From: Candidatus Latescibacterota bacterium
GTDB lineage: Bacteria > Latescibacterota > UBA2968 > UBA8231
Length of the DNA stretch: 64,000 nt
Assembly: GCA_965223905.1 (NCBI GenBank)
Contig: CBDCXV010000001.1
Coordinates: forward strand, 1,152,001-1,216,000
Direction of reading: 5' to 3'
In this document: positions 23,091 to 41,744 of the stretch, piece after piece
How the letters are laid out: each line of letters starts with the position of its first letter
Position numbering within the stretch: position 1 is the stretch's first letter
The notes under the pieces: generated by a model
Database searches by the model: none
Told to the model about the DNA's origin: nothing
Seen by the model: the letters and a program-made list of their open reading frames with translations, nothing else
Translations under genes and position numbers: made by a program

Positions 23091-23146
23091 TGGATGAGGA
23101 CGGCACGGTCGGAGTCGACCCGAAGGACGGTTAGCCTGTCAGGACC
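23091..23146 (+). repeat. 56-bp direct repeat, copy 2; contains the recombinase stop codon
   Basis: Diverged copy of 22090-22145. Confidence 0.75.
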
Positions 23147-24021
23147 GGGCGGGGCCCAACAGCGTGTCGAGTGGGCTCTCGATCCGCACCAGGTCCTTCC
23201 GCCGCACGTGGGTGTAGATCTCCGTCGTTTTGGAGCTCCTGTGTCCGAGGAGCTCCTGTATGTAGCGCAGATCGGTCCCCCCTTCGAGCAGGTGCGTCGC
23301 AAAGCTGTGTCTCAGGGTGTCCACGGTCACCCGCTTGCGGATTCCCCGCGGCGGCAACCGCACGGGAGAACACTTTCTGCACCGACCGTTCGGTGAGATG
23401 CCGTCCTTCCCGGGCTCCGGGAAACAGCCACGTCGACTGCCGGTACGCCTTCCAGTAGGACCGAAGATCCTCGAGAATCGACCTGGGCAGCAGGGTGTAG
23501 CGATCCTTGCGCCCCTTGCCCTGCTGCACGCGGATCAACATGCGATCGCTGTCGATGTCGCTCACCTTGAGACGCACGACCTCCCCCACACGCAGCCCCC
23601 CGGCATACACCAGGGCCAGGATGACCCGGTGCTTGGGATTCCGAAGGGAATCGAGCAGTCGCAGCATTTCCCGCTGGCTGAGGATTTCGGGAAGCTGGCG
23701 ACCGCCACGCGGCCTGCGCAGACCCTCCAGGGAGGCGGGCTGCTTAAGGACTTCCCCGTAGAGGAAACTGAGAGCACTGTATGCGATGTTGAAGGCGGAG
23801 CGGCTCACCCCGCGGTCGAGGAGCCATTCGAGGTGGGACCGCACCTCGTCATGCCGTTCCCCCCGGTAGTCCCGTTTCCACTGAAGGAATCGCCGGCAGT
23901 AGCCCATGTACGACTTCTGCGTTTTCCTCGCGTACCCCCTCAGCTTCAGCTCGGATTCGACCCGGTTCAGGGTGTCGACCTCTTCGTCGGTCAGGTCTGG
24001 ATGTCTCCGATAGCGCCGCAT
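23139..24021 (-). pseudogene. Tyrosine recombinase (N-terminal SAM-like domain plus XerD-like catalytic domain), frameshifted; putative cassette integrase
   Basis: [63 protein letters not shown]; one extra base in the C4 run at 23344-23347. Confidence 0.88.
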
Positions 24022-24216
24022 GGGCCCGGTTACTCCAAGGCAAAGGTTTGGCCCTGCCGTAGAGAAAGCCGTGCCAGTCCGACACGGAAACCCGAAATCG
24101 TCCTATCTGTCGCAACCGCAATGAGTTACGCCGGATATCCCGAATCGGGAAAATAGTTGCAACTGTTCACCCCGGCACGTACCATCGTATCAGATAAGTT
24201 ACACCCAGCGGCCATT

Positions 24217-24259
24217 ATCCGAACCATTTGTTCGGATGCAATCAGATATATGACATGGG
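24217..24259 (+). other. Putative attI-like primary recombination site
   Basis: Palindrome ATCCGAAC-CATTT-GTTCGGAT, then GATATATGACATGGG, which complements the right end of cassette 1. Confidence 0.6.
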
Positions 24260-24344
24260 TTGTCACAGTACCAGTGAAATTCGACAGAGGCAAAGCTGGC
24301 ACGGTTGAAATCATGAGCCTGCAGGCGCTGGAGAAAAAACTGAC

Positions 24345-24836
24345 GTGGATCGCGTAGCCGTATTCGCAGATGTACAGAATGTTTACTACACAGTTAAGCA
24401 GCAACATAATTGCCATTTCGACTATGGTTCTTTCCTCAGGGAGGCGACAGCCGGCCGGAAACTGGTGAAGGCAGCAGCCTATGCTATTGACAAAGGCGAC
24501 AGAAAGCAGGCCCAATTTCAGCAAATTCTGAAACGGCTCGGTTTTGAGGTAAAGCTCGCGCCTTATATTCAGAGAGCTGACGGCTCAGCCAAAGGGGACT
24601 GGGACGTGGGCATTACGGTCGATATGTTGGAGTACGCAGATCGCGTGGATGTCGCTGTCCTGGTTTCAGGTGACGGAGACTACGCGCCTGCAATTGACAA
24701 GCTAATCAAGGAATCCAAGGTATCCGTCGAGGTGTACGGTGTCCCAGGACTAACTGCTAGTCGTCTAATCGAATCGTCGACGCGATTTGTGCCAATTCAA
24801 GGAGATCTGTTGCTGCCTATTCCCACCACGTGGTGA
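24345..24836 (+). CDS. Cassette 1: NYN-domain (LabA/DUF88) protein
   Basis: VFADVQNVYY, KGDWDVGITVD, LVSGDGDY, VEVYG. Confidence 0.88.
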   Translation: MDRVAVFADVQNVYYTVKQQHNCHFDYGSFLREATAGRKLVKAAAYAIDKGDRKQAQFQQILKRLGFEVKLAPYIQRADGSAKGDWDVGITVDMLEYADRVDVAVLVSGDGDYAPAIDKLIKESKVSVEVYGVPGLTASRLIESSTRFVPIQGDLLLPIPTTW

Positions 24837-24926
24837 CGTGGAAGCGACACTGTTTGCAAAGCCATGCACGCTAACGCACTCTCGCGTCGCTACCTCTCCG
24901 CGTTGATCAGCCTTGGAGCAATCATA

Positions 24927-25030
24927 CCCACGTCATATATCACAGCAATTCACGCTGCCGCCATTCGGCGCTTGGCCTTCGGCAAGTCGCTTTCGCGACT
25001 TCGTGAATTGTGAGAACGTTATGTGACATG
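24927..25030 (+). repeat. attC-like cassette site 1
   Basis: GTCATATATC-N4-CAATTCACG...CTTGGCCTTCGGCAA...CGTGAATTG-N7-GTTATGTGAC. Confidence 0.8.
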
Positions 25031-25065
25031 CGAAAACCTGCTATTCTGTTCAGTATAGAAGCCGA

Positions 25066-25954
25066 ATGATCCTCAGAATCTTCATTGCCCTGTTCACTGC
25101 TCAAGTATGGTCACTACCCCAGAGCCAGGCTTGTACGCTAGAGGACAGCGCTATTATCCACAGAATTCAAAGTACCGACGTACTTGTGGAAGCCACTGTG
25201 CTGTCAACGGTGAAGGATACACTAGGTGCATACATCGTACCTAGGGAAGCAACGCTTTCCGTCCAACGGGCTCTAGTGGGTGGCCCGCTATCGGAAGTCA
25301 TACACATGGAGCTCGACTCAACGCTCACCGAATTTTCCTCCTGTCTCGATTTGTATCAGGGCTACGAGGAAGGTGACCATTTTCTTGTCTTCCTCAGTAG
25401 AAAGAAGGATCTGGACGTTTTCTGGGCAGCACCCCACGTTCGTCCCTGGGTCGTTGACTACGATCCTGTGGATCCGTCTATACTTGCTAGATACATAGAA
25501 CAGACCGTTGCGCAGGAGGTAGAGCCTATCGCCTTCAGCTTTGAGGGGCCAGACACGGTTGTCGCCGGGGCCCAATTCAGATCTCGACTCACTATCACGG
25601 AACCGTTTCGACGAAACGCTGAGGGTTAGGATACCTGCAGAGAGGACCCTAGAAACCAGTTTTGAGTTCACTTTCTTGATACAAAATCCTGACGGAGATC
25701 GCTTTCCAGCTGATCACCCAATACTAGTTACAATTAAGCCCGGCGAAACCAAGACTGTTGAGTTGGACGACGCCTTTGAGAAAGTGCCGGAAGGTCATTT
25801 CAAGTATGAGGGAACATTGTGGTTGCCCGGCAACAAGGATCACTCAATCGCATACCACAACCGACTGTTTTCCAGGTGGATGTCTGCTCTACCCACCTCT
25901 GTCGAGCCTTCTTCTTGGGGCAATGTCAAGCATAGTTACTCGTCTTCGCCATGA
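25066..25954 (+). CDS. Cassette 2: secreted hypothetical protein, frameshift near 25600, C-terminal PTSVEPSSWGNVK motif
   Basis: Signal-peptide-like N terminus; ORFs 25066-25629 and 25541-25954 join with a 1-nt indel. Confidence 0.6.
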
Positions 25955-25962
25955 CCTGTAAA

Positions 25963-26066
25963 CACGTCACATAACACCTCGGTTTGCGCTTCGGCGCTGA
26001 ACGCGCCTCGACCTTCGGCAACCCCTTTGGGGTTCGCAAACCGGAGAACGTTAAATGAACATGGGA
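25963..26066 (+). repeat. attC-like cassette site 2
   Basis: GTCACATAAC-N4-CGGTTTGCG...CTCGACCTTCGGCAA...CGCAAACCG-N6-GTTAAATGAA. Confidence 0.82.
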
Positions 26067-26128
26067 AAAACGGTTTTATTGCAGTCTATTACACTATATA
26101 CACCGGACATCTAACGAGTGTTTTAACT

Positions 26129-27121
26129 ATGGATATAGAACTTCGGAAAATAGTCTCTGCTATTAGAGATTATGCCGTAGAAAAATTCAGTGATGCAGAG
26201 TGGGTCGATTTTGGGTACGTAACCGAGGCTTCAGATTTGATTGAAAACCATCCTCGACTTTTGAGATCACTTGCTTTTAATGACGATGATTACAGCTACT
26301 GTGCTACACAGGTCGTAAATGAGGCACTGGAAGAGCGCCCCGAGAAAATTCAGGAAGTTGTAGAACACTTTGGCGTCGATCTTTGGCTTGAGGAAAAAGA
26401 TGAACGTCGCCATCAGAGAGTATTTACGGAAACCCGACCGCTTGTTCCTTCCCCACGCTTCTGGCGGGAGGGGTATTTCCGACTCTTCATCAGCCATTTA
26501 GCGGATCACAAAGCCAATGTCCAAAGGCTTAAGCGGGAACTGGAGAAGTGGGGAGTATCTGCATTCGTTGCCCACACAGATATTGAGCCCACTCGAGAGT
26601 GGCAATTGGAGATCGAAGCAGCACTCTTTTCGATGGATGCAATGCTTCCAGTATTGATGCCAGGATTTAAAGAGTCAAACTGGACAGACCAGGAAGTCGG
26701 TGTAGCAATTGGCCTTAGGAAACTTATTATTCCGGCTCGACGAGGTATAGATCCCTACGGATTTATAGGAAAATATCAAGGTTTTCAGGCAGATGGAAGG
26801 ACTGTCGGACAAGTAGCTGAAGATGTCGTTAAAATTCTGCTTAAGAGCGAAAAGACGCGAGCCCAGATAGTTAGAGGTTTATCAGCGCGGATTAAAGTTG
26901 AAGTCAACGATCAGGTTGTTACCTCACGCTTAAAATTGATTGATGAGTTGAAAATTTGGAGCAAAGAGCAGGTAAAAGAGATTCTTGAAAGCGTTCTCAT
27001 CCGAGGTGGTGAGATGGCAGAAGACGTACAGGTAGCCTTCAATGATCTACAGGCTTCGCATGGCGTTGTTATAGTGCCACCGAAAGTAACAGCCTTTGAT
27101 GACGATGACCTTCCTTTCTGA
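26129..27121 (+). CDS. Cassette 3: TIR-domain protein with AbiJ-N-terminal-like domain
   Basis: HPRLLRSLAFNDDDY N-domain; TIR motifs RLFISH, AFVAHTDIEPTREW, SNWTDQEVG; AT-rich. Confidence 0.82.
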   Translation: MDIELRKIVSAIRDYAVEKFSDAEWVDFGYVTEASDLIENHPRLLRSLAFNDDDYSYCATQVVNEALEERPEKIQEVVEHFGVDLWLEEKDERRHQRVFTETRPLVPSPRFWREGYFRLFISHLADHKANVQRLKRELEKWGVSAFVAHTDIEPTREWQLEIEAALFSMDAMLPVLMPGFKESNWTDQEVGVAIGLRKLIIPARRGIDPYGFIGKYQGFQADGRTVGQVAEDVVKILLKSEKTRAQIVRGLSARIKVEVNDQVVTSRLKLIDELKIWSKEQVKEILESVLIRGGEMAEDVQVAFNDLQASHGVVIVPPKVTAFDDDDLPF

Positions 27122-27134
27122 CAGCAAGAATATA

Positions 27135-27244
27135 TCCCACGTCATTTAACATCCCGTTGACGCAGCGCCGCCATACGGCGGCTTGGCCTTCGGCACCCTG
27201 GCTACGCCAGGGTCGTCAACGGAAGAACCGTTATACGAACTGAG
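27135..27244 (+). repeat. attC-like cassette site 3
   Basis: GTCATTTAAC-N3-CCGTTGACG...CTTGGCCTTCGGCAC...CGTCAACGG-N7-GTTATACGAA. Confidence 0.82.
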
Positions 27245-27291
27245 AAAACCGACCATCGTGAATCCGACGCGAATCAGACAAGGGTTTACGA

Positions 27292-28011
27292 ATGATCCTT
27301 GAAGCATTGAATGATCTTTTCACATCAGAATTGCTGGCTGCCCACCCTGAAGAATGGGGCGTGACCGATCATTGTGATGCGCCTTCCGGCGTAGGGTACG
27401 CGACCACGATTACGCCGAGGGCAATTTCGACGGCACTCGACCGCGGTGCCGACGTAATTGTCACGCATCATGACGCCTGGGATTTTATGTATGGACAAAG
27501 AGAGAAGGTATACGATCTCTTACGCGACAACAGCCTGACCCATGTGTGGGCCCGACTGCCGTTGGACCAGTCGGACTTTGGCACATCGGCCACGCTTCTC
27601 TCGAAAATTGGCTGCGTGGAGGTCTGTAAGCCATCGAAAGGTGAAGTACGCCTTGGTGAACTGGATGAATCAACTGACTTCGAGGCGATCCGTTTGAAGC
27701 TCGATTCCCTATTGCAGGACCAACCACGTAGCCTCCATGATTCGGGTCGAGCCATCCGCAGAATAGGCTGCGTGACTGGGGCTGGCGTCTACACGAGTTA
27801 CCTCAAGGATGCGATGCCCCATGGTATTGACCTTTATCTGACAGGAGAGACTAGCCTTTACTTATTGGAGTGTGCCGTCCACCTTGGACTCAGCGCCCTG
27901 GTTTACTCCCACAACTATACCGAGTTGCCAGGAGTCCATATGTTCGCAGAGCGTTTTTGCCAAGCTCTTCAACTCGAGATGAAGGGACACCTCGGTGACT
28001 CTCACTTCTGA
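27292..28011 (+). CDS. Cassette 4: Nif3-like dinuclear metal-centre protein
   Basis: DVIVTHH, LPLD, IGCVTGAG, YLTGE, SHNYTE. Confidence 0.8.
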   Translation: MILEALNDLFTSELLAAHPEEWGVTDHCDAPSGVGYATTITPRAISTALDRGADVIVTHHDAWDFMYGQREKVYDLLRDNSLTHVWARLPLDQSDFGTSATLLSKIGCVEVCKPSKGEVRLGELDESTDFEAIRLKLDSLLQDQPRSLHDSGRAIRRIGCVTGAGVYTSYLKDAMPHGIDLYLTGETSLYLLECAVHLGLSALVYSHNYTELPGVHMFAERFCQALQLEMKGHLGDSHF

Positions 28012-28024
28012 TTCGGGCGAGCGA

Positions 28025-28127
28025 CTCAATTCGTAACACCGCGGTGTTGCGCTGCGCCGCTGTCGCTCCTTGGCCTCCGGCAAGCCGGCAACGCCAGGTT
28101 CGCAAACCGTGAGACGTTATATGGAAT
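28025..28127 (+). repeat. attC-like cassette site 4 (partly degenerate)
   Basis: TTCGTAAC-N4-CGGTGTTGCG...CTTGGCCTCCGGCAA...CGCAAACCG-N6-GTTATATGG. Confidence 0.75.
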
Positions 28128-28134
28128 ATCTGAA

Positions 28135-28895
28135 ATGAGAAAAGAAGAATCAATCGACGGAGACTATCTGGCCCCAGCGAAATACGACAAATACTACGAC
28201 GCGTATGCTACGCTTCCAGAACGGTTTCTGGCTGACCTCGCCTCTCGCGGAAGGGTCCTTGAACTGGCATGTGGAACTGGCCGGATAGCAATTCCCATGG
28301 CGGAGAACGGCCTTGAGGTGACCGGGATCGATTATTCCGAGCCGATGGTAAGCCTTGCCAGATCAAAGGCCGAAGACAGACAGGTGAGGGTCGACTGGAT
28401 CCGCGACGATATACGCTGCTTTGACACCGGTAAACGATATGGGTCGATCTTGCTACTGCACAACGCATTATGGCACCTGCACAACCTTTCCGATTTCGAA
28501 GAGTGCATTCGCTGTGTGAAGCGTCATCTCCTTCCGGGTGGTTTCTTCATTTGGACGTCTTTGTCCCTGGGGTGGAGATCCTCAATCGCGACCCAGGCAT
28601 TCGGTACCCATTCTCTAGCTACACGGACGTTGACACGGGACAAGAAGTGCAGGTTACTCAGTCCTACAGGTATGAAGCAGACACCCCGATCGCGCGCATG
28701 GTGCACTACAGAAAGGACTCTGATGAGATCGTTGGGGGTCTGAATCTCCGGATGTATTTCCCGAAGGAACTGGATGCCTTGCTGAAGTACAACGGGATAA
28801 GGATCAAGGAGAAATTCGGGAGCTGGGACCGTGACCCCTTTGGGCCGGACTCCAGGCATCAGCTTTGTTTCTGCACCACCACGGAGGACGGCTGA
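28135..28895 (+). CDS. Cassette 5: class I SAM-dependent methyltransferase, frameshift near 28551
   Basis: VLELACGTGR, GIDYSEPM; continues in a second frame as LDVFVP..LRMYFPKELDALL. Confidence 0.8.
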
Positions 28896-28907
28896 GCAGC
28901 CGGAATC

Positions 28908-29005
28908 GCATATCGGATATCACTCCAATTCACCCGGCGTCGACCGCTCTCCTGAGGCTGTGCCCACCCCGCATGCGCGAGACCGGAATTGTGAGAAAGT
29001 CTGGG
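28908..29005 (+). repeat. Eroded attC-like site 5
   Basis: ATATC-ACTC-CAATTCAC ... GAATTGTGAGAA resembles the arms of site 1; core and GTT are lost. Confidence 0.45.
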
Positions 29006-29165
29006 GACCTTAGGATGAATTAGTCGCGAGATACGGGAGATAATTCAGGCATGGCCAACTTGAAGGACGGGCCCTTCGACAAGCGCGTCGATTACGACCC
29101 GGATAGCAATGTTCCTGTTCTGTCCCCGGCATACGCAGTGGACTTCGAAGAATTTCGAGAGGTAG

Positions 29166-29705
29166 GTGATGAAATCTGAATACGTGATGGCGTTGATTTT
29201 TCGAATTCTGGGCCTTCTGTTGGGACTTCAAGCAGTAGCCTTCATCCCGGGCATAATGTTGGCGACTTCAGAGCCGTTTTCCGGGGGTTCGCCAACATGG
29301 CCGCTCGTGATGCCTCAAGTGCTCGGATTGGTGCTGTGTCTGCCAGTAGCTTTCGTGTTGTTTCGCTACGGACGATGGCTTGCCAACCTCGTTGTGGGTG
29401 AAGACGAGCATCTGGAACTGGCGGGAGTGGCCGTAGAGACCGCCGATACCCTACCGGTTTTTCGTTTGCTCTTGCGCGTTGTTGGCGCATTCGTTGTTGC
29501 CTGGTCGGTGCCCGAGTTGGCCGGTCATGGTTTCGGCCACGTGATGCTGTACCAGATGAGCGGCCCGCAAATCTGGACTCAGATCGCCCCGGGCGTTGTG
29601 AAGCTGGCTATAGGCGTATATCTGCTCAAAGGTGGGACACACCTTGTACGCTTCGCGTACGGCTCCCAGGCCATATCCGATGACCCAGGAAATGACGAAA
29701 CCTGA
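29166..29705 (+). CDS. Hypothetical four-TM membrane protein
   Basis: Four hydrophobic segments; GAGG RBS. Confidence 0.7.
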   Translation: MMKSEYVMALIFRILGLLLGLQAVAFIPGIMLATSEPFSGGSPTWPLVMPQVLGLVLCLPVAFVLFRYGRWLANLVVGEDEHLELAGVAVETADTLPVFRLLLRVVGAFVVAWSVPELAGHGFGHVMLYQMSGPQIWTQIAPGVVKLAIGVYLLKGGTHLVRFAYGSQAISDDPGNDET

Positions 29706-29882
29706 TTACATGCCAGTCTGGAAAGGCATAAGAAAGTCGCTTCCGTGAGGAGGTCATTTGTCGTGTAACAGCGCCATTCCGGATGGAGCTTTCACCTTCG
29801 CCAGAATGCTTCCCAAGTTCGGGAAACCGGCCGACTTGCTGTGAGAAGTGCAAGATCAGATCACCAGGATCGAGGACTCCCG

Positions 29883-30190
29883 ATGTATGAACAGGACAGG
29901 TACGTATTTGACACCCAAGGTTACGTGGTGTGGTGCTTCCCGACATCCTCACTCATTCCGAGGTTGAGCGCCTCGTCGACGCCTTCCCAAGGGATGACAA
30001 GGGTCAGGTCATGCTCGAAGCTCCTGACGACAACTCACATCATGAAAACAGGATCCAGGGAAGGGTGCTCGATCATCGAGCTCTGATTGAGGCCAGCGTC
30101 ACCGGCTACCTGGGACGCAGCTGCATGAAGCATCCTGCCGCCTGGGACATCGGTTCCGTCGGTAGCCTGGGGCCCATCAGGATCGCCTGA
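29883..30190 (+). pseudogene. PhyH-family N-terminal fragment
   Basis: DRYVFDTQGYVV..LPDILTHSEV; frameshifted and truncated. Confidence 0.5.
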
Positions 30191-30271
30191 TAGGGCACTG
30201 ATTCTCACCGAATCCGACCGGTATGTCCTCAAGGCAGTAGGCGATTTGATTGGAAAAAGGGGGCCCTCGAT

Positions 30272-31015
30272 ATGCCAGGTTTCATGTCATGGAAGGAAAT
30301 GAACTGGCTTCTGCCTGACTTTAATGAGACCGGGTTGATCTACCACGGAAGTCAGCCTGAAAATCTGGCTTCTATCTTCCAGAATGGCCTGATTCCCCAA
30401 TGCAATAGTCCCAGAGATGGGCACGAAACAATCTACAATGCACACTACCGGTACCGGCCCAAGTCCATTCCAGACTGGGTGGATCCGAGACGATGTATTT
30501 TTGGTTACATGAACCGGGCCAGACAAGGAGGCTGGGGCGGCATTGTGGATGGAATAGTCAATGGTGTAACCATTGGCATTAAAGCAGCAGATCATATCAC
30601 TGAGCGGACCTGGACAGCCTGCGTCCGGTTTTCAGATATGGTGGACTGCCCGGAGGAGGCAGGGTACTTCGATACGGAGGAGAGAAAAGCCTTTTTCAAG
30701 GACAGAATGGAACCGGTTTCGTGTAAAGCATACTGGGAGACCAGCCTCTCATTTCACGATAACTTGAAGATTCGCCTGGATCATTTGCTCCCGATGCAGG
30801 GATATCATGAGCTATTGATTTGTTCGGAGATTGATCCTGGGTTACTAAATCTTCGAGGGTTCAGAGTGCGGGGGGCAAATGGAACACGCGAGGTTGTCAG
30901 CAATGACCTGCCCGAGGTGTTTCTGAATGCCGAAGAAAAGCTTCGGAACAACATGCCAATTGTGGGGGAACTGAAGGCCGTCAGCGAATTCTGCGGCCGT
31001 GCCGCCAGCGCCTGA
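30272..31015 (+). CDS. Hypothetical protein with an ART-like YHG(S)..NL.SI..GL.P N-terminal motif
   Basis: IYHGSQPENLASIFQNGLIP; 247-aa intact ORF. Confidence 0.6.
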   Translation: MPGFMSWKEMNWLLPDFNETGLIYHGSQPENLASIFQNGLIPQCNSPRDGHETIYNAHYRYRPKSIPDWVDPRRCIFGYMNRARQGGWGGIVDGIVNGVTIGIKAADHITERTWTACVRFSDMVDCPEEAGYFDTEERKAFFKDRMEPVSCKAYWETSLSFHDNLKIRLDHLLPMQGYHELLICSEIDPGLLNLRGFRVRGANGTREVVSNDLPEVFLNAEEKLRNNMPIVGELKAVSEFCGRAASA

Positions 31016-31206
31016 CAACAACGGTTTCCCTTTGAACTGCGGCGGTATTTGCACGGCCGGGCTCAAAGGTGCGTAACAACCCGGGGAGACCAGAGTCTGG
31101 TGACCGCACCCCTGAAAGAAATGCGGGCAGCTGTGGCGGCCATGAAAAACGCAGGTGGGTATTGGCCTGGAGCTGAACCCAACAACGCCAACGAGGAGTC
31201 CCGAGA

Positions 31207-31548
31207 ATGAAAGAGATTGCGCCCACACTTCCGGTATCGGATGTGGAGAAAGCTGTCGAGTTCTATCGGGACAAGTTGGCGTTCAGTGTCGGTTTCCAGA
31301 ATCATCCCGTCTTTGCTTTGGTTCGGCGCGGCGCTGTCAGTATCGGTTTGCAGCTTGCTTCGCAGCGACGGGCAGCCGGGACAGGAAGCTGCTACATCTG
31401 GGTGGATGATGTCAGGGAAATTTATAATGAGTTGTCCGCAAGAGGAGTTGAATTCGCAGATGACATCGCGTTTCGCGATGAATATGAAATGACCGACTTC
31501 GTCCTCCATGATCCGGATGGGAACCACATCGGGATTGGCGGTGACTGA
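31207..31548 (+). CDS. VOC / glyoxalase-bleomycin resistance family protein
   Basis: LPVSDVEKAVEFYRDKL, YIWVDDV, DPDGNHI. Confidence 0.88.
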   Translation: MKEIAPTLPVSDVEKAVEFYRDKLAFSVGFQNHPVFALVRRGAVSIGLQLASQRRAAGTGSCYIWVDDVREIYNELSARGVEFADDIAFRDEYEMTDFVLHDPDGNHIGIGGD

Positions 31549-31648
31549 GGGGGTCATGAATGCGAATCTGGCAGGTTCCATCGCCCTGACTCCACCTCTA
31601 AGGCCAATGGGGGTAAAAAGCGGACGTTCTTAGTGGAAGCTCGATTCC

Positions 31649-32413
31649 ATGGAACTGACCAGAGATGACATTGAAGCTGGCTTCCGTAATCTCGGCCTGA
31701 AGGAAGGCGAAACAGTTGAAGTTCATAGCTCATTGAGCAGCTTGGGCAATGTGCAAGGGGGAGCTGAAACTGTCGTGGATGCCTTGATGAGTGTCGTGGG
31801 CGAAAGTGGAGCGTTGGTGATGTCCAACTATCCGCTCACTCCCCCGATCCCTTTGACTTCCGAAGAGAAATCCAAGGGAATAGGTTGGAAACTCAGGATT
31901 CTATCCGAGGGCTCAGACGAAAGGACCGTGACCGGGGCCATTTCCGACGAGTTTCGCTTCAGAGCTGATGTTGTATGCGGTTCTGGGACCCGTCGTGTCT
32001 GTGCCTGGGGCCCGGATGCGGATTTGCACGCCAGGGGATATCGACACTTGCTCGAAGTCGATGGGCTAGTTCTTCTCCTTGGTGTAGACATAGACCGATG
32101 TTCAAGCATGCATCTCGCGGACGGTGTGAAGGTTACCAGGCAGGCCAGGAAGCGGATGAATGCATTATGGCCTGATTCAGGGTGCAAAATCACGGACGAA
32201 GTCAGGCGGGAATATCCTTCAGATATAATCATTGGCCCCAGGGAAGGGACATCTGGAAATCCTTGGGAAAATGCCAGGCAGGAAGCTGAAAGACGAGGAT
32301 TGATAAGGAGAGGTAAGGTCGGTCGAGCAGACTGCTTGCTATTCAGGGCGAGGGATCTAGTCGGTCTGATTGAGGAAGTTCGTAAATCTGGGCCTTTCAA
32401 AGACGCATTGTAG
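31649..32413 (+). CDS. AAC(3) / Antibiotic_NAT-family N-acetyltransferase
   Basis: EVHSSLSSLGNVQGGAETVVDAL, TGAISD, VLLLGV..CSSMHLA. Confidence 0.8.
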   Translation: MELTRDDIEAGFRNLGLKEGETVEVHSSLSSLGNVQGGAETVVDALMSVVGESGALVMSNYPLTPPIPLTSEEKSKGIGWKLRILSEGSDERTVTGAISDEFRFRADVVCGSGTRRVCAWGPDADLHARGYRHLLEVDGLVLLLGVDIDRCSSMHLADGVKVTRQARKRMNALWPDSGCKITDEVRREYPSDIIIGPREGTSGNPWENARQEAERRGLIRRGKVGRADCLLFRARDLVGLIEEVRKSGPFKDAL

Positions 32414-32624
32414 AACATTTAGACGAGGAATAAATGGCGTCAAGGGGTTTGGCGCTGTCGATGCTTCGAAGGCGGGGAGGAAGCGGCCGTCGTGGTTGCG
32501 GTACAGCCCCACAAGAAGGGGTGCCGCTGTCCTCAGTGTGGGCGCCGGGGCGCGTGATAGCTCAGCGCGGAGAAAGCAGGGCAAAGGTCCAAGACGAACC
32601 GCGGCGGTCCTGGCCGGAAAGACT

Positions 32625-34105
32625 ATGCAATACTTCCAACCTGATGGGGACTTTTTCGTCGGGACTGCTTCCTGTGTCGTGTGGGTCGAAACGATCGATA
32701 TGTTCTCCGGGACCATCTGCCCTTCTACCACGAAGGTGTCTTCCGGCTCTTCTACCTTCTGGACGAGGGCCACCACGGAGCACTCGGCGGGTTGGGAGGC
32801 CATCAATGGGCACAGGCCAGCACGACGGACCTCGTTCACTGGGAACACCATCCGCTCCAAGCATGCCATCCCGATCACCGAGGAACGTGAAGGTTCCATC
32901 TGCACCGGTTCGGTGTTCTTCCACGAAGGGACATACTACGGTTTCTACGCGACGCGCATGCGCGACAGGACGCAGCATCTGAGTCTTGCAACCAGTCGAC
33001 TGCATGCCCTTCTACCACGAAGGTGTCTTCCGGCTCTTCTACCTTCTGGACGAGGGCCACCACGGAGAAGGCCGACCCCAACCCCTTCGCCTCGCCGCCC
33101 ACCGGCTACGACCCTGTTCATTACCGAGACCCCATCGTCTTCAAGGATCGTTGTGAGGGGCTCTTCCACATGCTCGTTACGGCGTTCCTGGAAGACTGGC
33201 CCATCGGCGACCGCGGCGGATGCCTTGCCCACCTGGTCTCCCCCGACTTGAAACACTGGGAGAACAGAAAGCCGTTTATTGTCCCGGGTTTGCCGGGGGC
33301 GCCCGAATGTCCGGACTATTTCTTCTGGAATGGCTGGTACTACCTCATTTTCAGCAACCGTGGGGTTGCCCGCTACAGAATGTCGCGAGAGCCATTTGGA
33401 GCCTGGCTTCGGCCGAAGGTCGACACGCTTGACGGAAATGCCGCACGGGTAATGAAGACGGCGCCATTCGGGGACGGCAGGCGCCTTGGTGTTGCCTGGA
33501 TCGGCACACGCGAGAACAACCGGGACGATGGACCGTTTCAGTGGGGGGGCAACGCGGTTTTCCGAGAACTTGTACAGCATGACGACGGCACCCTTGGTGC
33601 GAAATTCCCGGACGAGCTGACCCCTTCCGGTGAGCCGTTGTCCGCCATGAACATGTCCGCCCTCCACCTGTCCGCGCTCGATGCCGATACGAGAGTTGAG
33701 GGACGCAGTGTCCACGCAGCAGCTCGGCAAGGCCTGGCAGCGGCCGGGTGCTCAGGCATTCCACGCAATGCGCGACTGGCAATCCGTGTCCTTCCTCAGC
33801 CAGGCCCCCTGGGTTTCGGGCTTCGTCTCAGGGCTGGTGAGCCCTTCGACTCCGGATACGACCTGCGCTTCTCACCCTGTGACCGGGTCGCCAGGCTGCA
33901 CGATCAGTGGATATATGGTGTCGATGGACTGGATCGCTCCTTCTCCCTGGAGATAGTTCTCAGGGACGACATCATTGACGTTTGCATCGACGGCCGCAGG
34001 ACGCTTGTCGATCGATGTCCGGAAAGGCGGGGCGACCGGATGCTGCTGTATGCGCAGGATTCCGGGGTCACGTTTGAGGTTGCCGAGATCGCTGCTCTGC
34101 CGTAG
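32625..34105 (+). pseudogene. GH32-like five-bladed beta-propeller glycosidase, scrambled
   Basis: HQWAQASTTDLVHW, SICTGS, YRDP and PECPD motifs; frameshifts and a 63-bp internal duplication. Confidence 0.7.
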
Positions 34106-34143
34106 CGCAAAGAGAATTGCGGGCCACACCACCCGCCACCAAT

Positions 34144-34200
34144 CCCCAACACCCGGGGAACAGAAGCTGGGGTTCACAAACAGACAGCCCGTTAGGCGCC
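34144..34200 (+). repeat. Right half of an eroded attC-like site
   Basis: GGGGTTCACAAAC..GTTAGGC resembles GGGGTTCGCAAAC..GTTAAAT of site 2. Confidence 0.4.
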
Positions 34201-34220
34201 AGTCGAGAAAACTCCCGAAC

Positions 34221-34775
34221 GTGAGACGGACGGCCACCAAAATCCCACTCAGGGTGCAGACAACGCGGTTGGAAACCTTCAACCGCGAACGTCACGACTG
34301 GCCGGTCTCCCTGCGCCGGAAGTGCTCGGCGGATTCAGGGCGAACCTGGGTCTTCACGGATGGTGGCGGTGATGGAAGGTTCGGGGCTGTCGTTGTGCGT
34401 CCGGGAATCGAAGAGCACCGGATAGCGGGACGGCGTGAGTCACGGGCAAACAGCGTGGTTGCCGAACTCGATGGGGTCGTGTTGGGTCTGGAGAATTGCC
34501 AACTGGGTGAGAGAATCACGATCGTGTCCGACTATCTGTGGACAGCTTACTATATCAACGGCTGGCGCCGCGTGCACAACCCCCGGCTGCGTGAAGGGGT
34601 TGTACAGGCGAGGACCTGTCTCGAAAAGCTGCGGGGCGCCGTGTTCGTGCATTACGCGCTGGAAACCGGGGGCGAATGTGCCTTCAGACGATGGAACGCT
34701 GTCGCTCATGACCTGTGTCAAAAGGACATGGTCGGGACCAACTCGCGTACTCGTTGGGACAAGACCAGCGCTTGA
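34221..34775 (+). CDS. RNase HI-like domain protein (start uncertain)
   Basis: WVFTDG, VAELDGV..GL, ITIVSD, NAVAHDL. Confidence 0.6.
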   Translation: MRRTATKIPLRVQTTRLETFNRERHDWPVSLRRKCSADSGRTWVFTDGGGDGRFGAVVVRPGIEEHRIAGRRESRANSVVAELDGVVLGLENCQLGERITIVSDYLWTAYYINGWRRVHNPRLREGVVQARTCLEKLRGAVFVHYALETGGECAFRRWNAVAHDLCQKDMVGTNSRTRWDKTSA

Positions 34776-34873
34776 GCGGAATCTCTCTCATGCCAGGGAG
34801 TGACTCTTAAGAGGTCGCCTTTCCCCGGTATTATCATTAGTCAGACACGTCACCTAAAAAGGAAACGCGCAAA

Positions 34874-35641
34874 ATGGGACACTGCTGGACGCTTGCCCTT
34901 GAACAGCAGACCGACCTGACCCCATCCCATGGCTCGGTTTCCGAGTTGGCGGCAGCGGTACGCCGAGGCGCGGATCTCAGGCTTTACATGACCACGGATC
35001 GGTACGAGGAAACCCTCTACTTCCAGCAGACTTATGCCGGTGAGAATGGCGCGTTCGCAGGGCTGATGAGCCACCACCACAGCTACGTGCACCGCGGCCA
35101 GGACATAGAGCAACCATACATCAGCATCTTCAAATACGACGACTCCGGGACCTTCTCCCACGTGAAGTGGATGTGGCGAGATATCCGCCTGGATGAGAGC
35201 CAGGCCTATCCGTACGGGATATATCGATGGTTTACCTGCGACCGCTGGCGAACCGTCTACGAGCACGATGCCGATGGCAGTCCCGTGCGCGGAAATCTGG
35301 AGGAACTGAAAGAGCATGTCCGGCTGGGGCACTCGGTTCAGGTAGGAGTCCGCCAACTGTTCGGTTTGGCCGAGGATACCACTGCCGGGCCATCGCACAT
35401 CTCGTTTGTCACCACGATGCAGCCGCTCATCCGGGATGGCCATGTGCAGTCCAACTGCGACCTCGTTGCGATAGGCGCCCCGAAATGGCCGTGCACCTGG
35501 CGCGACGGCCTCCATGTGGCAGTGATGCTCCCCTCCACGTCCGGTGAGATTCTCTGCTTCCTTGCCGAACCGGGGAATCTCCCGTTTAGACGGGTCATGC
35601 GCCGGCGCCCCATGCAGTGGATGGTGGCGGAGATGGAGTGA
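34874..35641 (+). CDS. Hypothetical protein
   Basis: 255-aa ORF with RBS, co-oriented with the array. Confidence 0.65.
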   Translation: MGHCWTLALEQQTDLTPSHGSVSELAAAVRRGADLRLYMTTDRYEETLYFQQTYAGENGAFAGLMSHHHSYVHRGQDIEQPYISIFKYDDSGTFSHVKWMWRDIRLDESQAYPYGIYRWFTCDRWRTVYEHDADGSPVRGNLEELKEHVRLGHSVQVGVRQLFGLAEDTTAGPSHISFVTTMQPLIRDGHVQSNCDLVAIGAPKWPCTWRDGLHVAVMLPSTSGEILCFLAEPGNLPFRRVMRRRPMQWMVAEME

Positions 35642-35719
35642 ACGCGCGAACCGTTGAATGAACCGCCAAACCCGGAGTAGGAACAGGAAGCGTTGCCGCC
35701 GGGAAACCAACCGAGGAAT

Positions 35720-36205
35720 ATGCCAAGAAAACCGATTCAAGTGCTTGTGATTCCATTCCGCATAGGATCTGAGCCGGAGTTTGCGGTTTTTCACCGTTCC
35801 GACGAGGAGATGTGGCAATTCATTGCCGGTGGCGTTGAGGACCAGGAGGACGCAATGCAGGCCGCCCGGCGGGAGGCAGAAGAAGAGGCGTCCATACCGA
35901 GTAACTTGTCGTTTGTTTCGCTGGATTCAGTTGCCTCGATTCCCAGGACATCATTTGAAGAGACGGAGCACTGGCCGGAAGATCTGCTTGTTGTACCCGA
36001 GTATTCGTTCGCCGTCGATGTCGGCGACCGAGAGCTGGTGCTATCCTTCGAACACGACGAGGTGAGGTGGGTGCCTTACGACAAAGCCCGGTGTCTCCTT
36101 ACATGGGACAGCAATCGGGTGGCGCTCTGGGAGCTCAACGAGAGGCTGGCCAACCACACAACAGTGAGGTCTCCAGAACTTTTCGGTAGTCTTCCGGGTG
36201 TGTAA
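35720..36205 (+). CDS. NUDIX hydrolase (NudB-like)
   Basis: WQFIAGGVE..AARREAEEE Nudix box, LSFEH..W. Confidence 0.88.
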   Translation: MPRKPIQVLVIPFRIGSEPEFAVFHRSDEEMWQFIAGGVEDQEDAMQAARREAEEEASIPSNLSFVSLDSVASIPRTSFEETEHWPEDLLVVPEYSFAVDVGDRELVLSFEHDEVRWVPYDKARCLLTWDSNRVALWELNERLANHTTVRSPELFGSLPGV

Positions 36206-36317
36206 TTCCACCATCCGCAAATACATCGGTATTCGCCTCGACGCTGATCAGGAGGTCCGAGGGCAGTTAATTGTTTGGGGATAATTGGTCCAAACCAGGA
36301 GACAGGGAGAAAAGGGA

Positions 36318-36938
36318 ATGTTCGGAAAACTCTTCGTCGTATGCCTCATTGTTGCCGGTTCATGTTTCAGAGTCGAGGCCGAGCGTCCGGCTGGAATGGT
36401 TCTCTACTTCAAGTCCGGGGACGAGGTATTCCTGCTTCTCGCGGACCATCGGGAAAAGGACAGAGGTTGGGCGGGTTACGGAGGAGGTCCGTATGAGGGG
36501 GAGAGCGCGGCTGAAACGGCGGCGAGAGAAACGGAGGAAGAGACGAGAGGCTACTTTCTGCGGGATGATCTGCTCGCCCTGATCAAGGGCCAGAAGCCAG
36601 TGATAGACAATGGCTTTGCCTTGTACTTCGCGGAAGTTCCCTTTGTTCCCGCACCACTTGTGACCAACAATCCACTTCCCAGCGACGACGAATCCTACGT
36701 TGAAAGAGGTCCGTACGCATGGATTCCGTATTCCGAACTCGAGCCATACTTGAAAGGTCCGATCGAACCTGAAGACAGATATTCAATTGAAGAGAGGTTA
36801 CTTCCCGGTGAGCGATATACTTCCTGGTACTGGCCTGTCTGGCTTGGCAGTGTCTGGAAATCCGTGGAAACGAATTCGATTCCCTGGGACGTCGGAGTGA
36901 GCCCCGACCTGTCCGGAAAGGGGAGCCATGACCCCTGA
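36318..36938 (+). CDS. Secreted NUDIX-domain protein
   Basis: Signal-like N terminus; GGG..EGESAAETAARETEEET. Confidence 0.75.
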   Translation: MFGKLFVVCLIVAGSCFRVEAERPAGMVLYFKSGDEVFLLLADHREKDRGWAGYGGGPYEGESAAETAARETEEETRGYFLRDDLLALIKGQKPVIDNGFALYFAEVPFVPAPLVTNNPLPSDDESYVERGPYAWIPYSELEPYLKGPIEPEDRYSIEERLLPGERYTSWYWPVWLGSVWKSVETNSIPWDVGVSPDLSGKGSHDP

Positions 36939-37776
36939 GTCCGAGAGCGGGATGAAGGTCGGTGAGCAGATCGCCAGATACTACACTGAACTGCCCGAGG
37001 TGGCCGGAGTAGTCCTTGGCGGGTCAGTAGCACGGGGCACTGCCGACCCGAGTTCCGATCTGGACCTCTTCGTTTTCTGCCACGACTACCCAAGTAAACG
37101 TTTTCGATCTGAAGTCGTTGCCGGATTTCAGGGGGAAGGGTGGAAGCAACATGGCAATAAGCTCGATCGGGGGATTTTGAGGGACTGCTTTCGGGGTTCC
37201 GGTCATCGAATCGATATCGAGCACGTACGCGTCAGCAGCTATGAGTCTGCAGTCGAAGATGTCTTGTGTCGCCACGACACCGATCGCGACAAACAAAGCC
37301 TGCTGGGAGGATTGCTCGACTCCCGTTCATTGCATGACACCGGGATTATCGAAAAATGGAAGTCGAGGATATCCAAGTGCCCGGATGGCCTGCAGCGAAA
37401 GGTGCTCGAGGAGAATCTTTCCATGAGTCCTCTTTGGATCCCCGAGATCTACGCCCGGAACCGGGACGATCACTTGTATCTGTTGGAGGCGCTGAGCAGT
37501 GTTGGAACCTCCATCCTCGGCTTGCTGCATGGCCTCAACCGGATGTACCAGCCTGGCGAGTACAAGCGGGTCACGCTCCTTCTGTCCCGACTGGAGGTGG
37601 CACCACCGAACATCGTGGAAAGGTGGAAGTCCGTTTTCCAGTACGGGTCCGTTGGAGTGGTAAAGGAGCTTGAGACCATCGTTCTGGAGATCTTCAGCCT
37701 CGTTGAGGCACGCTGTCCGGATATTGATGTCGCATCCGCTCGGACCGGCTTCACGACCGACACGGATACAGAGTAG
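36928..37776 (+). CDS. Pol-beta-type nucleotidyltransferase domain protein
   Basis: LGGSVARGTADPSSDLDL. Confidence 0.82.
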   Translation: MTPESESGMKVGEQIARYYTELPEVAGVVLGGSVARGTADPSSDLDLFVFCHDYPSKRFRSEVVAGFQGEGWKQHGNKLDRGILRDCFRGSGHRIDIEHVRVSSYESAVEDVLCRHDTDRDKQSLLGGLLDSRSLHDTGIIEKWKSRISKCPDGLQRKVLEENLSMSPLWIPEIYARNRDDHLYLLEALSSVGTSILGLLHGLNRMYQPGEYKRVTLLLSRLEVAPPNIVERWKSVFQYGSVGVVKELETIVLEIFSLVEARCPDIDVASARTGFTTDTDTE

Positions 37777-38007
37777 ACGTAGACCCTGGAATTTATGGCG
37801 AAGAAAGGAAGGAGCTCAGGGAAATTAGCCCCAAACCTCGTTCCTTCGGTTGCACCCCATCTTGTCCGGATCTGACCCCAAACGATGCGCATCGGTCTTA
37901 TTTCAGATACTCACTGCCCAGAGCGATGCTCCGCCTACCCAGTCGCTTTGGGCCAGGTATTCCGGGATCTCGATCTGACAGCCGGTCAACTCTCCACCCG
38001 GATCGTT

Positions 38008-38481: not shown

Positions 38482-38535
38482 AACCAGGGGAACACACTTA
38501 TTCCCTCCACGCAGGCTGAGAGGGTATTGAAGACT

Positions 38536-38706
38536 ATGCAGATCTCGGTCGAAGATAATCCCACTTCTGAAGATTGCGATTTCGTTCGGAACCGCCTCCA
38601 TGAGCATAATGCAGCAATTGTGGGACCGGACAACTATGTGCCTCTTGCCATTTTCGTCCGTGACGATACGGGCACAATTCCCGCAGGCCTGCTCATTGTT
38701 CGATGA
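38536..38706 (+). pseudogene. GNAT acetyltransferase N-terminal fragment
   Basis: LHEHN...PLAIFVRDD.G.I.AGL followed by an early stop. Confidence 0.5.
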
Positions 38707-38737
38707 TTCAGATTCATGCCATCAAGGGGATCCTGAG

Positions 38738-41735: not shown

Positions 41736-41744
41736 TTTAGCTCC

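What the first reader, a model, noticed from the sequence alone, without database searches (positions are those of the whole stretch)
24245..28037. Each cassette's left end base-pairs with its own right end, including a compensatory GATA/TATC core
Seen: cassette 1 GATATATGACATGGG (24245) versus CCCACGTCATATATC (24927), 14/15 complementary; cassette 2 GTTATGTGACATG versus CACGTCACATAAC, 12/13; cassette 3 GTTAAATGAACATGGGA versus TCCCACGTCATTTAAC, one gap and one mismatch; cassette 4 GTTATACGAACTGAG versus CTCAATTCGTAAC, a 2-nt gap and one mismatch. The ends match better within a cassette than across a junction. Inference: each gene existed as an excised circle, with crossover just after the first G. 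The normally invariant GTT/AAC core is replaced by GAT/ATC at both ends of cassette 1. The recurring A/C top-strand mismatch becomes a G-T wobble on the bottom strand, which suggests bottom-strand folding.
Basis: partly seen in the sequence, partly recalled or inferred. Interest (0 to 1): 0.85.

Follow-up and report, generated by a model that had tools for sequence, protein, structure and literature searches.

The report
Integron cassette ends, variant GAT core
The matching left and right ends of each gene are the two halves of an integron cassette's recombination site, a known feature, but one cassette carries a real GAT/ATC core and the neighbouring integrase lacks the domain that defines integron integrases.

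Summary
Observation confirmed. All four end pairs are in the window as described. Own ends match better than junction or shuffled pairs: 0 of 20000 permutations reach the observed value in this genome. In relatives, own ends beat junction ends in 108 of 126 cassettes.

Interpretation supported, but it is textbook integron biology. Cassettes circularise, the crossover lies between G and TT, and the bottom strand folds.

GAT/ATC is not a sequencing error. Cassette 1 has three copies in this genome with the same G|ATATAT boundary, and four independent runs hold it unchanged. In 141 cassettes of the attC family, GAT on the left goes with ATC on the right (6 both, 2 left only, 1 right only, 132 neither; p=2e-8). 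First-base variants are never mirrored (0 of 6), which places the crossover after the G. IntI1 experiments in print already showed that GAT/ATC is tolerated.

The A/C mismatch (T·G wobble on the bottom strand) at position 11 is fixed across the family, in 118 of 141 cassettes.

Beyond the finding: the integrase beside attI is frameshifted here. Intact relatives lack the IntI-specific extra (I2) domain, yet they sit beside attC arrays in several phyla. This may be an unrecognised integron class.

The parts
23139..24021 (-). intI-like tyrosine recombinase gene, a pseudogene with one frameshift near 23345. It is of the short type that lacks the IntI-specific additional (I2) domain.
   Evidence: The translations show the frame change. 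TIGR02249 matches only profile positions 2-181 and 254-315. tblastn with the intact 312-aa relative gives two pieces, 24021-23344 and 23345-23154.
24148..24245 (+). attI, the conserved platform sequence ending in ...CAG. The last G is the crossover base.
   Evidence: Alignment A5 of four genomes is conserved up to the G and diverges immediately after it. A second, diverged attI copy in this genome carries the same cassette.
24217..24237 (+). Palindrome inside attI (8-nt arms, 5-nt spacer). One arm position changes in a compensatory way between genomes.
   Evidence: Sequence. Alignment A5 shows C/G in one arm matched by G/C in the other in G020. In G004 the arm position does not pair.
24246..25018 (+). 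Cassette 1, with a NYN-domain gene (24345-24836) and a variant GAT/ATC core.
   Evidence: Pfam NYN, E=5.5e-38. Boundaries come from the two other copies in the genome.
24245..24259 (+). Left end of cassette 1: the attI G plus 14 cassette bases (GATATAT...).
   Evidence: Unchanged in a contig of run X9 that spans 24245-24440 with 0 other letters.
24927..24941 (+). Right end of cassette 1: the outer stem plus R'' ending in ATC.
   Evidence: Unchanged in X9 and X5 contigs that span it.
24935..25024 (+). attC1 as it stands in the array. It is a hybrid: its own R'' (ATC type) with an R' made of its own G plus the TTATGT of cassette 2.
   Evidence: Covariance model R1, 107.4 bits. Coordinates.
25019..26050 (+). 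Cassette 2, a gene of unknown family, split here into two overlapping frames.
   Evidence: ORFs 25066-25629 and 25541-25954. No Pfam or NCBIfam match. Contigs of three runs lack one base at 25599.
25969..26056 (+). attC2
   Evidence: R1, 96.4 bits. Coordinates.
26051..27230 (+). Cassette 3, an AbiJ_NTD5 + TIR domain protein (defence-like).
   Evidence: Pfam PF18865, E=9e-24, and PF13676, E=2e-13.
27144..27236 (+). attC3
   Evidence: R1, 98.3 bits. Coordinates.
27231..28116 (+). Cassette 4, a NIF3/DUF34 family protein.
   Evidence: Pfam PF01784, E=5e-22.
28031..28122 (+). attC4
   Evidence: R1, 86.4 bits. Coordinates.
28117..29015 (+). Cassette 5 remnant: a frameshifted SAM methyltransferase and a degenerate attC (28907-29015). 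Its ends do not match each other.
   Evidence: ORFs 28135-28743 and 28470-28895. Pfam methyltransferase. R1, 21.2 bits, and R2, 32.1 bits. The degenerate R' was read.

Best explanation
The region is the start of a chromosomal integron: a broken integrase gene, attI, then four intact cassettes and one decayed cassette.

A cassette is a circle when free, and its attC site is then contiguous. On insertion the site is cut between the G and the second base of its R' box. The last G and the rest of attC end up at the cassette's right end. The following 6 bases of R', and in this family about 8 more bases of outer stem, end up at its left end. So each cassette's left end pairs with its own right end, and pairs less well with its neighbour's.

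Cassette 1 belongs to a sub-lineage of attC sites whose R box has A·T in place of T·A at the second position (GAT/ATC). The pair is kept on both arms because both arms are parts of one site.

The fixed A·C mismatch on the top strand, a T·G wobble on the bottom strand, at position 11 makes the bottom-strand hairpin the better folded one.

Shown here: the boundaries, the own-end specificity, the reality and cassette linkage of GAT/ATC, the repeated insertion of cassette 1, and the wobble asymmetry.

Inferred: that the bottom strand is the recombined strand, and that the neighbouring short integrase, or its intact relatives, did the recombination.
For: - **Own-end specificity.** 0 of 20000 permutations reach the observed value in this genome. 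In relatives, own ends beat junction ends in 108 of 126 cassettes, with 12 the other way and 6 ties. Observed identity is 1279 against a permuted mean of 887 (max 954 in 5000 permutations).
- **Folding.** The native circular junction folds best in 16 of 18 cassettes. Mean bottom-strand energy is -30.3 for circular junctions, -23.5 in array context and -23.6 with shuffled left ends.
- **Boundaries.** Cassette 1 in C10 is identical to the window copy from the G onward, with 5 substitutions and 2 single-base indels in 774 nt. A third copy sits at a second attI. There the attI side is 81 of 105 identical and the cassette side 233 of 236. The attI alignment of four genomes diverges right after the G.
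- **Crossover position.** Position-1 variants are mirrored in 0 of 6 cassettes. GAT is mirrored in 6 of 8. The 2x2 table is 6/2/1/132, Fisher p=2e-8.
- **Not an error.** Contigs of runs X1, X5, X6 and X9, from four studies, carry cassette 1. The X9 pieces spanning 24245-24440 and 24411-24958 differ only at 24475, 24664 and 24899 and by single-base gaps. Contigs break at 24245 and about 25021, with other sequences beyond.
- **Literature.** Crossover between G and TT. Self-pairing extends beyond the 7-nt boxes to 9-11 nt in most cassettes (PMC2727003). GAT with its complement changed is recombined by IntI1 with an increase in frequency, and GAT is a preferred secondary site (PMC2811028).
- **Wobble.** The position-11 pair is A on the left and G in the reverse complement of the right end in 118 of 141 cassettes. 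Bottom-wobble-type transitions number 94 against 18 of the top-wobble type.
Against: - The integrase in the window is frameshifted, and I found no intact copy in this 93.6%-complete assembly. Recombination here is therefore historical, or needs a helper that was not seen.
- The integrase type lacks the domain that canonical IntI needs for attC recombination. Carrying the canonical mechanism over to it is an assumption.
- Some cassettes do not obey the rule. Window cassette 5, C10_c13 and C10_c5 are poor or at chance level. In the wider set there are 2 GAT/GTT cassettes and 1 GTT/GAT cassette.
- No circle junction was seen. Only assembled contigs were available, and these cannot show rare forms.
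- Related genomes are not independent samples, so the p-values across them are overstated.
Confidence: 0.9

Rival explanations
1. The complementarity only reflects a family-wide consensus shared by all cassette ends. Any left end would then pair with any right end, and nothing would be specific to a cassette.
For: Part of the ends is indeed conserved across cassettes: G1, T2, T3, A4, G8 and A/G at position 11. Junction pairs therefore still share 7.0 of 14 positions on average.
Against: Own pairs exceed every permutation, including at the variable positions 5-7 alone: 42 against 16.2 in this genome and 283 against 122 in relatives.
Confidence: 0.02
2. GAT/ATC is a base-calling or assembly error in an AT-rich repeat.
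For: ATATAT runs are error-prone, and the genome is a metagenome-type assembly with 5.1% contamination.
Against: Three copies in this assembly share it. Five further distinct GAT/GAT cassettes occur in this genome's C10 array and in G001, G004 and G020. Contigs of four independent runs carry it.
Confidence: 0.01
3. The paired ends are terminal inverted repeats of small transposon-like elements, or they are RNA hairpins (terminators) between genes. On this view they are not halves of a recombination site.
For: Inverted repeats bracket each gene. The attC hairpins would also fold in RNA and lie just after stop codons.
Against: The inter-gene elements have the attC layout (R''-L''...L'-R', AAC/GTT). 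They score 86-107 bits with a model that finds arrays in 29 of 61 relatives. Boundaries share a single G and show no target duplications. The same cassette sits at two attI sites and inside an array. An integrase-type gene lies beside attI in 7 genomes.
Confidence: 0.03
4. These elements recombine by a mechanism that differs from canonical integrons. It might use double-stranded sites, or recognise other features, because the integrase lacks the I2 domain. Bottom-strand hairpin recombination would then be the wrong model, even though the crossover position is the same.
For: The I2-less integrase is the only IntI-like gene in the genomes that hold these arrays. The unpaired excess lies on the ' arm of the bottom strand in 90 of 113 sites. 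Canonical extrahelical bases lie near L'' (PMC5027507).
Against: The strand asymmetry (T·G on the bottom strand, A·C on the top) is conserved from this genome to Paenibacillus and Desulfitobacterium arrays: 118 of 141 and 24 of 26. That is hard to explain for a purely double-stranded site. Array-context hybrid sites stay functional-looking despite R-box mismatches.
Confidence: 0.15

Closest known systems
Integron gene cassettes and their attC (59-base element) sites, with the crossover at G|TT of GTTRRRY
   Same: Same layout: R''-L''...L'-R' with AAC/GTT triplets, one ORF per cassette, and attI next to an integrase gene. The first 6 bases of R' belong to the following cassette, so a cassette's own ends pair. 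Extension of the pairing beyond 7 nt is described for most cassettes (PMC2727003).
   Different: In this family the outer pairing is longer, about 15 nt. It has a fixed G at position 8 and a fixed A·C/T·G asymmetry at position 11. Cassette 1 has GAT/ATC.
Engineered attC/attI1 cleavage-site mutants of Frumerie et al. 2010 (PMC2811028)
   Same: T2->A2 with the complementary base changed gives the same GAT/ATC R box. It was recombined by IntI1 with an increase in frequency, and GAT is reported as a preferred secondary site.
   Different: Those were laboratory mutants of attCaadA7 and VCR with IntI1. Here it is a natural, heritable sub-lineage at 5-7% of sites, in a family served by another integrase type. 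I saw no report of natural GAT/ATC attC sites in the passages I read, but I ran no search aimed at that question.
Sedentary chromosomal integrons and CALIN elements (Cury et al. 2016, PMC4889954; IntegronFinder 2.0, PMC9024848)
   Same: Long arrays of homogeneous attC sites with mostly unknown or defence-like cassettes. The second array (C10) has no integrase nearby and fits the CALIN definition.
   Different: The integrase beside attI would not pass the IntI-specific domain criterion that those tools use. Even the window array would be called CALIN.
VchIntIA (PDB 2a3v) and canonical IntI with the I2 helix
   Same: It is the best solved-structure match of the intact relative (E=2.5e-45). The catalytic motifs and the C-terminal SPLD-like motif are conserved.
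   Different: Only 17 residues stand where VchIntIA has 59, between the two matched stretches. Gaps of 29 and 9 residues appear against a canonical IntI of a related genome.

Membership tests
Integron (platform plus cassette array) | attC sites: imperfect inverted repeats R''-L''...L'-R' with the conserved AAC/GTT triplets, following each ORF | tested here: met
   Alignments A1 and A2 and the consensus fold. Four sites score 86-107 bits. The triplet is GTT at 147 of 167 R' sites and 146 of 168 R'' sites of the family.
Integron (platform plus cassette array) | attI next to the integrase gene, with cassettes inserted at a fixed G | tested here: met
   attI is conserved in four genomes up to ...CAG, with a different first cassette after it in each. 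A second attI in this genome carries cassette 1 at the same point.
Integron (platform plus cassette array) | Crossover between the first and second base of R' (G|TT) | tested here: met
   Comparative evidence only. Identity between cassette copies starts at the G. Position-1 variants are mirrored in 0 of 6 cassettes and position-2 GAT in 6 of 8.
Integron (platform plus cassette array) | Integron integrase carrying the IntI-specific additional domain (I2) | tested here: not met
   TIGR02249 matches only profile positions 2-181 and 254-315 here, and 2-179 and 235-315 in intact relatives, always below the cut-off.
Integron (platform plus cassette array) | Intact, active integrase in this genome | tested here: not met
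   Frameshift near 23345. No other copy in the assembly, which is 93.6% complete.
Integron (platform plus cassette array) | Recombination of the folded bottom strand of attC | tested here: inconclusive
   In silico only. The bottom strand is more stable in 17 of 18 sites. T·G on the bottom strand against A·C on the top at position 11 in 118 of 141 cassettes. This needs strand-specific assays.
Canonical attC | Extrahelical bases on the '' arm near L'' (as described in PMC5027507) | tested here: not met
   In minimum-energy folds of the bottom strand, the unpaired excess lies on the 5' (') arm in 90 of 113 sites with a well-formed stem. It lies on the other arm in 15 and is equal in 8. These are predicted folds, not structures.
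Canonical attC | GTT/AAC conserved triplet | tested here: not met
   Cassette 1 has GAT/ATC. Cassettes 2-4 have GTT/AAC.
CALIN (cluster of attC sites lacking an integron integrase) | Two or more attC sites with no intI nearby | tested here: met
   This applies to the C10 array, not the window: at least 16 attC sites over C10:1329326-1351795, with no integrase match near them.

The most novel reading that the evidence does not exclude
The window belongs to an unrecognised, widespread class of integrons. Its integrase is IntI-like but lacks the I2/additional domain that is held to be the innovation allowing single-stranded attC recombination.

Its attC sites differ from canonical ones in three ways:
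- an 8-bp R box (GTTANNNG);
- an outer stem with a fixed T·G wobble (A·C on the top strand) 11 nt from the cut;
- unpaired bases on the cleaved arm.

These features could take over strand choice from the extrahelical-base/I2 contact.

Such arrays are currently scored as CALIN. That would explain part of the 'unexpected abundance' of CALIN, including in Firmicutes. The natural GAT/ATC sub-lineage shows that the second triplet position is free in this system as well.
Probability: 0.35. Interest if true: 0.85.

Novelty: new variant of a known kind. Interest (0 to 1): 0.5.

Why it matters
The finding as written repeats, from raw sequence, the classic argument for circular cassettes and a G|TT crossover.

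Two things do add something.

First, it gives a natural, heritable GAT/ATC core with left-right covariation. Together with first-base variants that do not covary, this maps the crossover without any experiment. It also shows that the tolerance measured for IntI1 in the laboratory is used in nature.

Second, and outside the finding, the integrase beside these arrays lacks the I2 domain, while the attC sites share a conserved strand-asymmetric wobble across phyla. If these recombinases are active on these sites, three things would need revision:
- the definition used to find integrons;
- the count of integrons in Gram-positive and other phyla;
- the account of how single-strand recombination evolved.

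Tried and rejected
- **Rfam.** No family matched anywhere in the window at gathering thresholds, so I built my own models, R1 and R2.
- **Circle junctions.** The four runs laid were assembled contigs only. The joints listed are attC-to-attC joins of other arrays, and none is a circle junction of a window cassette. This says nothing about whether circles exist.
- **Start-codon idea.** I asked whether the A at position 11 is kept because ATG at 11-13 starts a leader or gene. ATG is there in only 70 of 141 left ends, while A11 is in 129 of 141, and in window cassettes 1-3 it opens only short frames. I rejected it as the general reason.
- **C10:1667825 as an independent ATC-type site.** It is the attC of a third copy of cassette 1, cut by an insertion element in its R''. 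It is not independent.
- **Cassette 5.** Its ends do not pair, by my reading. Its gene is frameshifted and its attC is degenerate. I treat it as decay or fusion.
- **More attC sites in the low-GC stretch 29-43 kb.** R1 and R2 with filters off found none beyond 29015.
- **Bacteroidota relatives of the integrase (43-48% identity).** No R1 or R2 match beside them, apart from L166 (both models) and L137 (R2). They may have other sites or another role.
- **Three apparent GAT/GTT cassettes in the distant arrays.** They come from my crude pattern rule for R', and I do not count them.
- **Literature.** Searches for an I2-less integron integrase, or for attC together with wobble, gave nothing relevant in titles and abstracts of the listings. 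Supplements were not seen. Figure S1 of PMC2727003, an alignment of natural attC sites, may bear on how rare GAT is.

Full report
**What is there**

The window holds a tyrosine-recombinase gene on the minus strand (23139-24021). After it comes a 220-nt spacer, then a run of plus-strand genes. Each gene is followed by an 88-93-nt imperfect palindrome. The flanks have about 69% G+C, and the run from 24 kb onward has 45-60%. The palindromes align with each other and have the attC layout: R'' ending in AAC, L'', a variable centre, L', and R' beginning with GTT. Rfam has no matching family. A covariance model built from the four sites (R1) scores them at 86-107 bits. It also finds one degenerate fifth site at 28907-29015.

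**Check of the observation**

Own-end identity over positions 2-15 is 13, 11, 10 and 4 of 14. Across the junction it is 10, 6, 9 and 5. With gaps allowed, the scores are 13, 9, 10, 8 against 7, 4, 5, 2.

Four cassettes allow only 24 permutations, so I looked for more. The same genome holds a second array on contig C10 with at least 16 attC sites and no integrase. With 17 cassettes (the duplicate copy of cassette 1 dropped), own-end identity sums to 179. The permuted mean is 121 (max 150), and 0 of 20000 permutations reach the observed value. The result holds for the variable positions 5-7 alone and for the outer positions 8-15 alone.

I circularised each cassette in a script and folded it with DNA parameters.
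- The native junction gives the most stable bottom-strand hairpin among 16-17 alternative left ends in 16 of 18 cassettes. The exceptions are C10_c5 and C10_c13.
- Mean energy is -30.3 kcal/mol for circular bottom strands and -27.3 for circular top strands.
- It is -23.5 for the array context and -23.6 for shuffled junctions.
- The bottom strand is the more stable one in 17 of 18.

**Relatives**

R1 finds sites in 29 of 61 related genomes. From 20 fetched regions, together with this genome's C10 loci and the window, I obtained 168 sites and 141 cassettes of at most 4 kb between consecutive detected sites. Five larger intervals were dropped.

In the 126 cassettes from other genomes, own ends beat junction ends in 108, lose in 12 and tie in 6. 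Observed identity is 1279 against a permuted mean of 887 (max 954 of 5000). Related genomes are not independent, so the size of the effect matters more than any p-value.

**Where the crossover lies**

Three independent lines place it right after the first G.
1. Cassette 1 (NYN domain) occurs again inside the C10 array. Identity to the window copy starts exactly at the G and continues through the next G, with 5 substitutions and 2 single-base indels in 774 nt. The flanks are unrelated.
2. A third copy sits at a second, diverged attI on C10. There the 100 nt up to the G are 81 of 105 identical and the first 235 nt after it are 233 of 236 identical. That copy is broken by a small and a large copy of an insertion element.
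3. The attI regions of four genomes are conserved up to ...CAG and differ from the next base on. This genome continues with ATATATG. The other three begin with TTA.

Across the 141 cassettes, a non-G first base (6 cases) is never mirrored in the cassette's own right end. An A at the second base (8 cases) is mirrored in 6.

This agrees with the published crossover between G and TT (passages read in PMC3518468, and PMC12901181).

**GAT/ATC**

It is not an error.
- The three copies in this genome share it.
- A second, unrelated cassette in C10 has GAT on the left and ATC on the right.
- In the 141 cassettes the table is 6 with both, 2 with GAT on the left only, 1 with ATC on the right only, and 132 with neither (Fisher p=2e-8). 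The six differ in size and lie in four genomes.
- GAT is the commonest non-canonical triplet, at 9 of 167 R' sites and 12 of 168 R'' sites.
- Of the nine array sites whose R' reads GAT, seven have an AAC-type R''. These are the hybrids expected from a cut after the G.
- Contigs of four public runs from four studies carry cassette 1. Pieces spanning 24245-24440 and 24411-24958 are unchanged at both cores. Contigs break at 24245 and about 25021, and other sequences lie beyond them. So the cassette stands in further contexts.

Frumerie et al. showed with IntI1 that the second triplet position is tolerant. T2->A2 with its complement changed gave an increase in recombination frequency, and GAT is a preferred secondary site (abstract, section 14 and discussion passages of PMC2811028). 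So the variant is real and natural, but mechanistically expected.

**The A/C mismatch**

It is more than recurrent. At position 11 from the G, the left end has A in 129 of 141 cassettes. The reverse complement of the right end has G in 128. The pair A/G occurs in 118. On the top strand this is A·C. On the bottom strand it is T·G. Among cassettes with good own pairing, transitions that give a bottom-strand wobble number 94 against 18 of the opposite kind.

Positions 4 (A) and 8 (G) are also nearly fixed on both sides. The family's R box is in effect GTTANNNG followed by an outer stem.

Pairing beyond the 7-nt boxes is described for most cassettes (PMC2727003). A role of nucleotide skew between the strands is proposed in the abstract of PMC5027507. 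I found no paper holding attC, wobble, bottom strand and integron together.

**The integrase**

The gene in the window is frameshifted. It matches the integron-integrase model only over profile positions 2-181 and 254-315. No other copy is in this 93.6%-complete assembly.

Intact relatives of 293-312 aa (84-100% identical to the G020 query) lie on the attI side of arrays. In G020, G004, G016 and G012 I checked that they are transcribed divergently from the cassettes. G002 has one beside a conserved attI. G001 has fragments. They show the same gap:
- 29 and 9 residues against a canonical IntI of a related genome;
- 17 residues where VchIntIA (2a3v), the best solved match, has 59.

This gap lies where IntI carries its specific additional domain; that placement rests on my recall. 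The listing abstract of PMC7790495 calls the I2 helix the step that allowed single-strand recombination. IntegronFinder requires a match to the IntI-specific domain (PMC9668308 passages; PMC4889954).

Among the 61 relatives, 11 have a canonical IntI over the cut-off. Only 2 of those 11 have R1-type sites. Of the 15 genomes with 8 or more R1 sites, 12 show the split, I2-less pattern.

**Beyond the family**

A scan of species-representative genomes returned 80 loci with 43-59% identical relatives from many phyla.
- R1 finds 21 sites in 10 of these loci.
- A broader model, R2, finds 56 sites in 20 loci. R2 was built from 65 sites, including some of those R1 hits, so those match by construction. 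Ten of the 20 loci are new to R2.
- Every hit lies downstream of the integrase, on the strand that makes the cassettes co-directional with it.
- Many of the other loci end within 1-2 kb of the gene.

In three Paenibacillus genomes, a Desulfitobacterium chromosome and an Ignavibacteriota genome, no canonical IntI is found (0 of 5), only the split pattern. In these distant arrays, own ends beat junction ends in 27 of 35 cassettes. The position-11 A/G pair is present in 24 of the 26 with good pairing.

In minimum-energy folds, the unpaired excess lies on the cleaved (') arm of the bottom strand in 90 of 113 sites. Canonical extrahelical bases are described near L''.

IntegronFinder 2.0 reports a single complete integron in Firmicutes and a few CALIN (PMC9024848 passage). 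Four searches gave no paper on an I2-less integron integrase, judged from listings only.

**Verdict**

The inference is the founding argument of integron biology, so the finding itself is ordinary.

The GAT/ATC core is a real natural variant that covaries between the two ends. It marks the most often re-inserted cassette of this genome.

The surroundings are less ordinary. This integron type is run by an integrase without the defining domain, and its attC sites carry a phylum-spanning strand-asymmetric wobble. That lead rests on comparative evidence only and needs a recombination assay.

Noticed in passing
window 23139-24021; L080:1441-2376; L081, L071, L076, L063: The integrase beside attI lacks the IntI-specific additional (I2) domain. 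It is frameshifted here, but in relatives it is an open frame of 293-312 aa or a full-length match, lying at the attI side of the arrays.
   Followed up: partly
L164 (Paenibacillus), L122, L123, L093 (Desulfitobacterium), L127, L120, L098 and 13 other loci: Relatives of this short integrase (43-59% identical) in other phyla are followed by co-directional arrays of similar attC sites. All 56 R2 hits lie downstream on one strand. None of the 5 genomes checked has a canonical IntI.
   Followed up: partly
G000 C10:1329326-1351795: A second, larger array of at least 16 attC sites without any integrase (CALIN-like). It holds a second copy of cassette 1 and a second GAT/ATC cassette.
   Followed up: yes
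G000 C10:1667700-1671000 (minus strand); also C11:2029136-2029224 and C1:1609356-1609390: Further attI-like copies without an integrase. The C10 one carries a third copy of cassette 1. That copy is broken by a roughly 80-nt MITE-like element in the gene and by a roughly 2.1-kb copy of the same element inserted in the TAT of R''. The element's end motif occurs 8 times in the genome.
   Followed up: partly
window 24217-24237: attI contains a palindrome with 8-nt arms and a 5-nt spacer, 8 nt before the crossover G. One arm position changes in a compensatory way in G020, and does not pair in G004. It may be a recombinase binding site.
   Followed up: no
window 25066-25954: The cassette 2 gene is split into two overlapping frames. 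Contigs of three public runs lack one base at 25599, so the break may be specific to this strain or may be an assembly error.
   Followed up: no
window 26129-27121: Cassette 3 encodes an AbiJ_NTD5 + TIR protein, a defence-like gene. This fits reports that chromosomal integrons store anti-phage systems (bioRxiv 10.1101/2024.07.02.601686, listing only).
   Followed up: no
window 29000-43000: Low G+C continues for about 14 kb past the last recognisable attC, with many small unrelated genes (glyoxalase-type and others). This is possibly a decayed part of the array. No attC was detected there with filters off.
   Followed up: partly
L074 (G001), junction at the site 2989-3090: One junction reads GATATAT followed by the outer stem of a cassette that elsewhere starts GTTACAT. 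The 7-nt box and the outer stem have different origins, which a single cut after the G does not explain.
   Followed up: no
family-wide, bottom strand just 3' of the cut: R' is usually preceded by AAC, giving AACGTT on the top strand. The 4-5 nt after the cut on the bottom strand are unpaired opposite 0-2 nt. This asymmetry is the reverse of the one described for canonical attC sites.
   Followed up: partly
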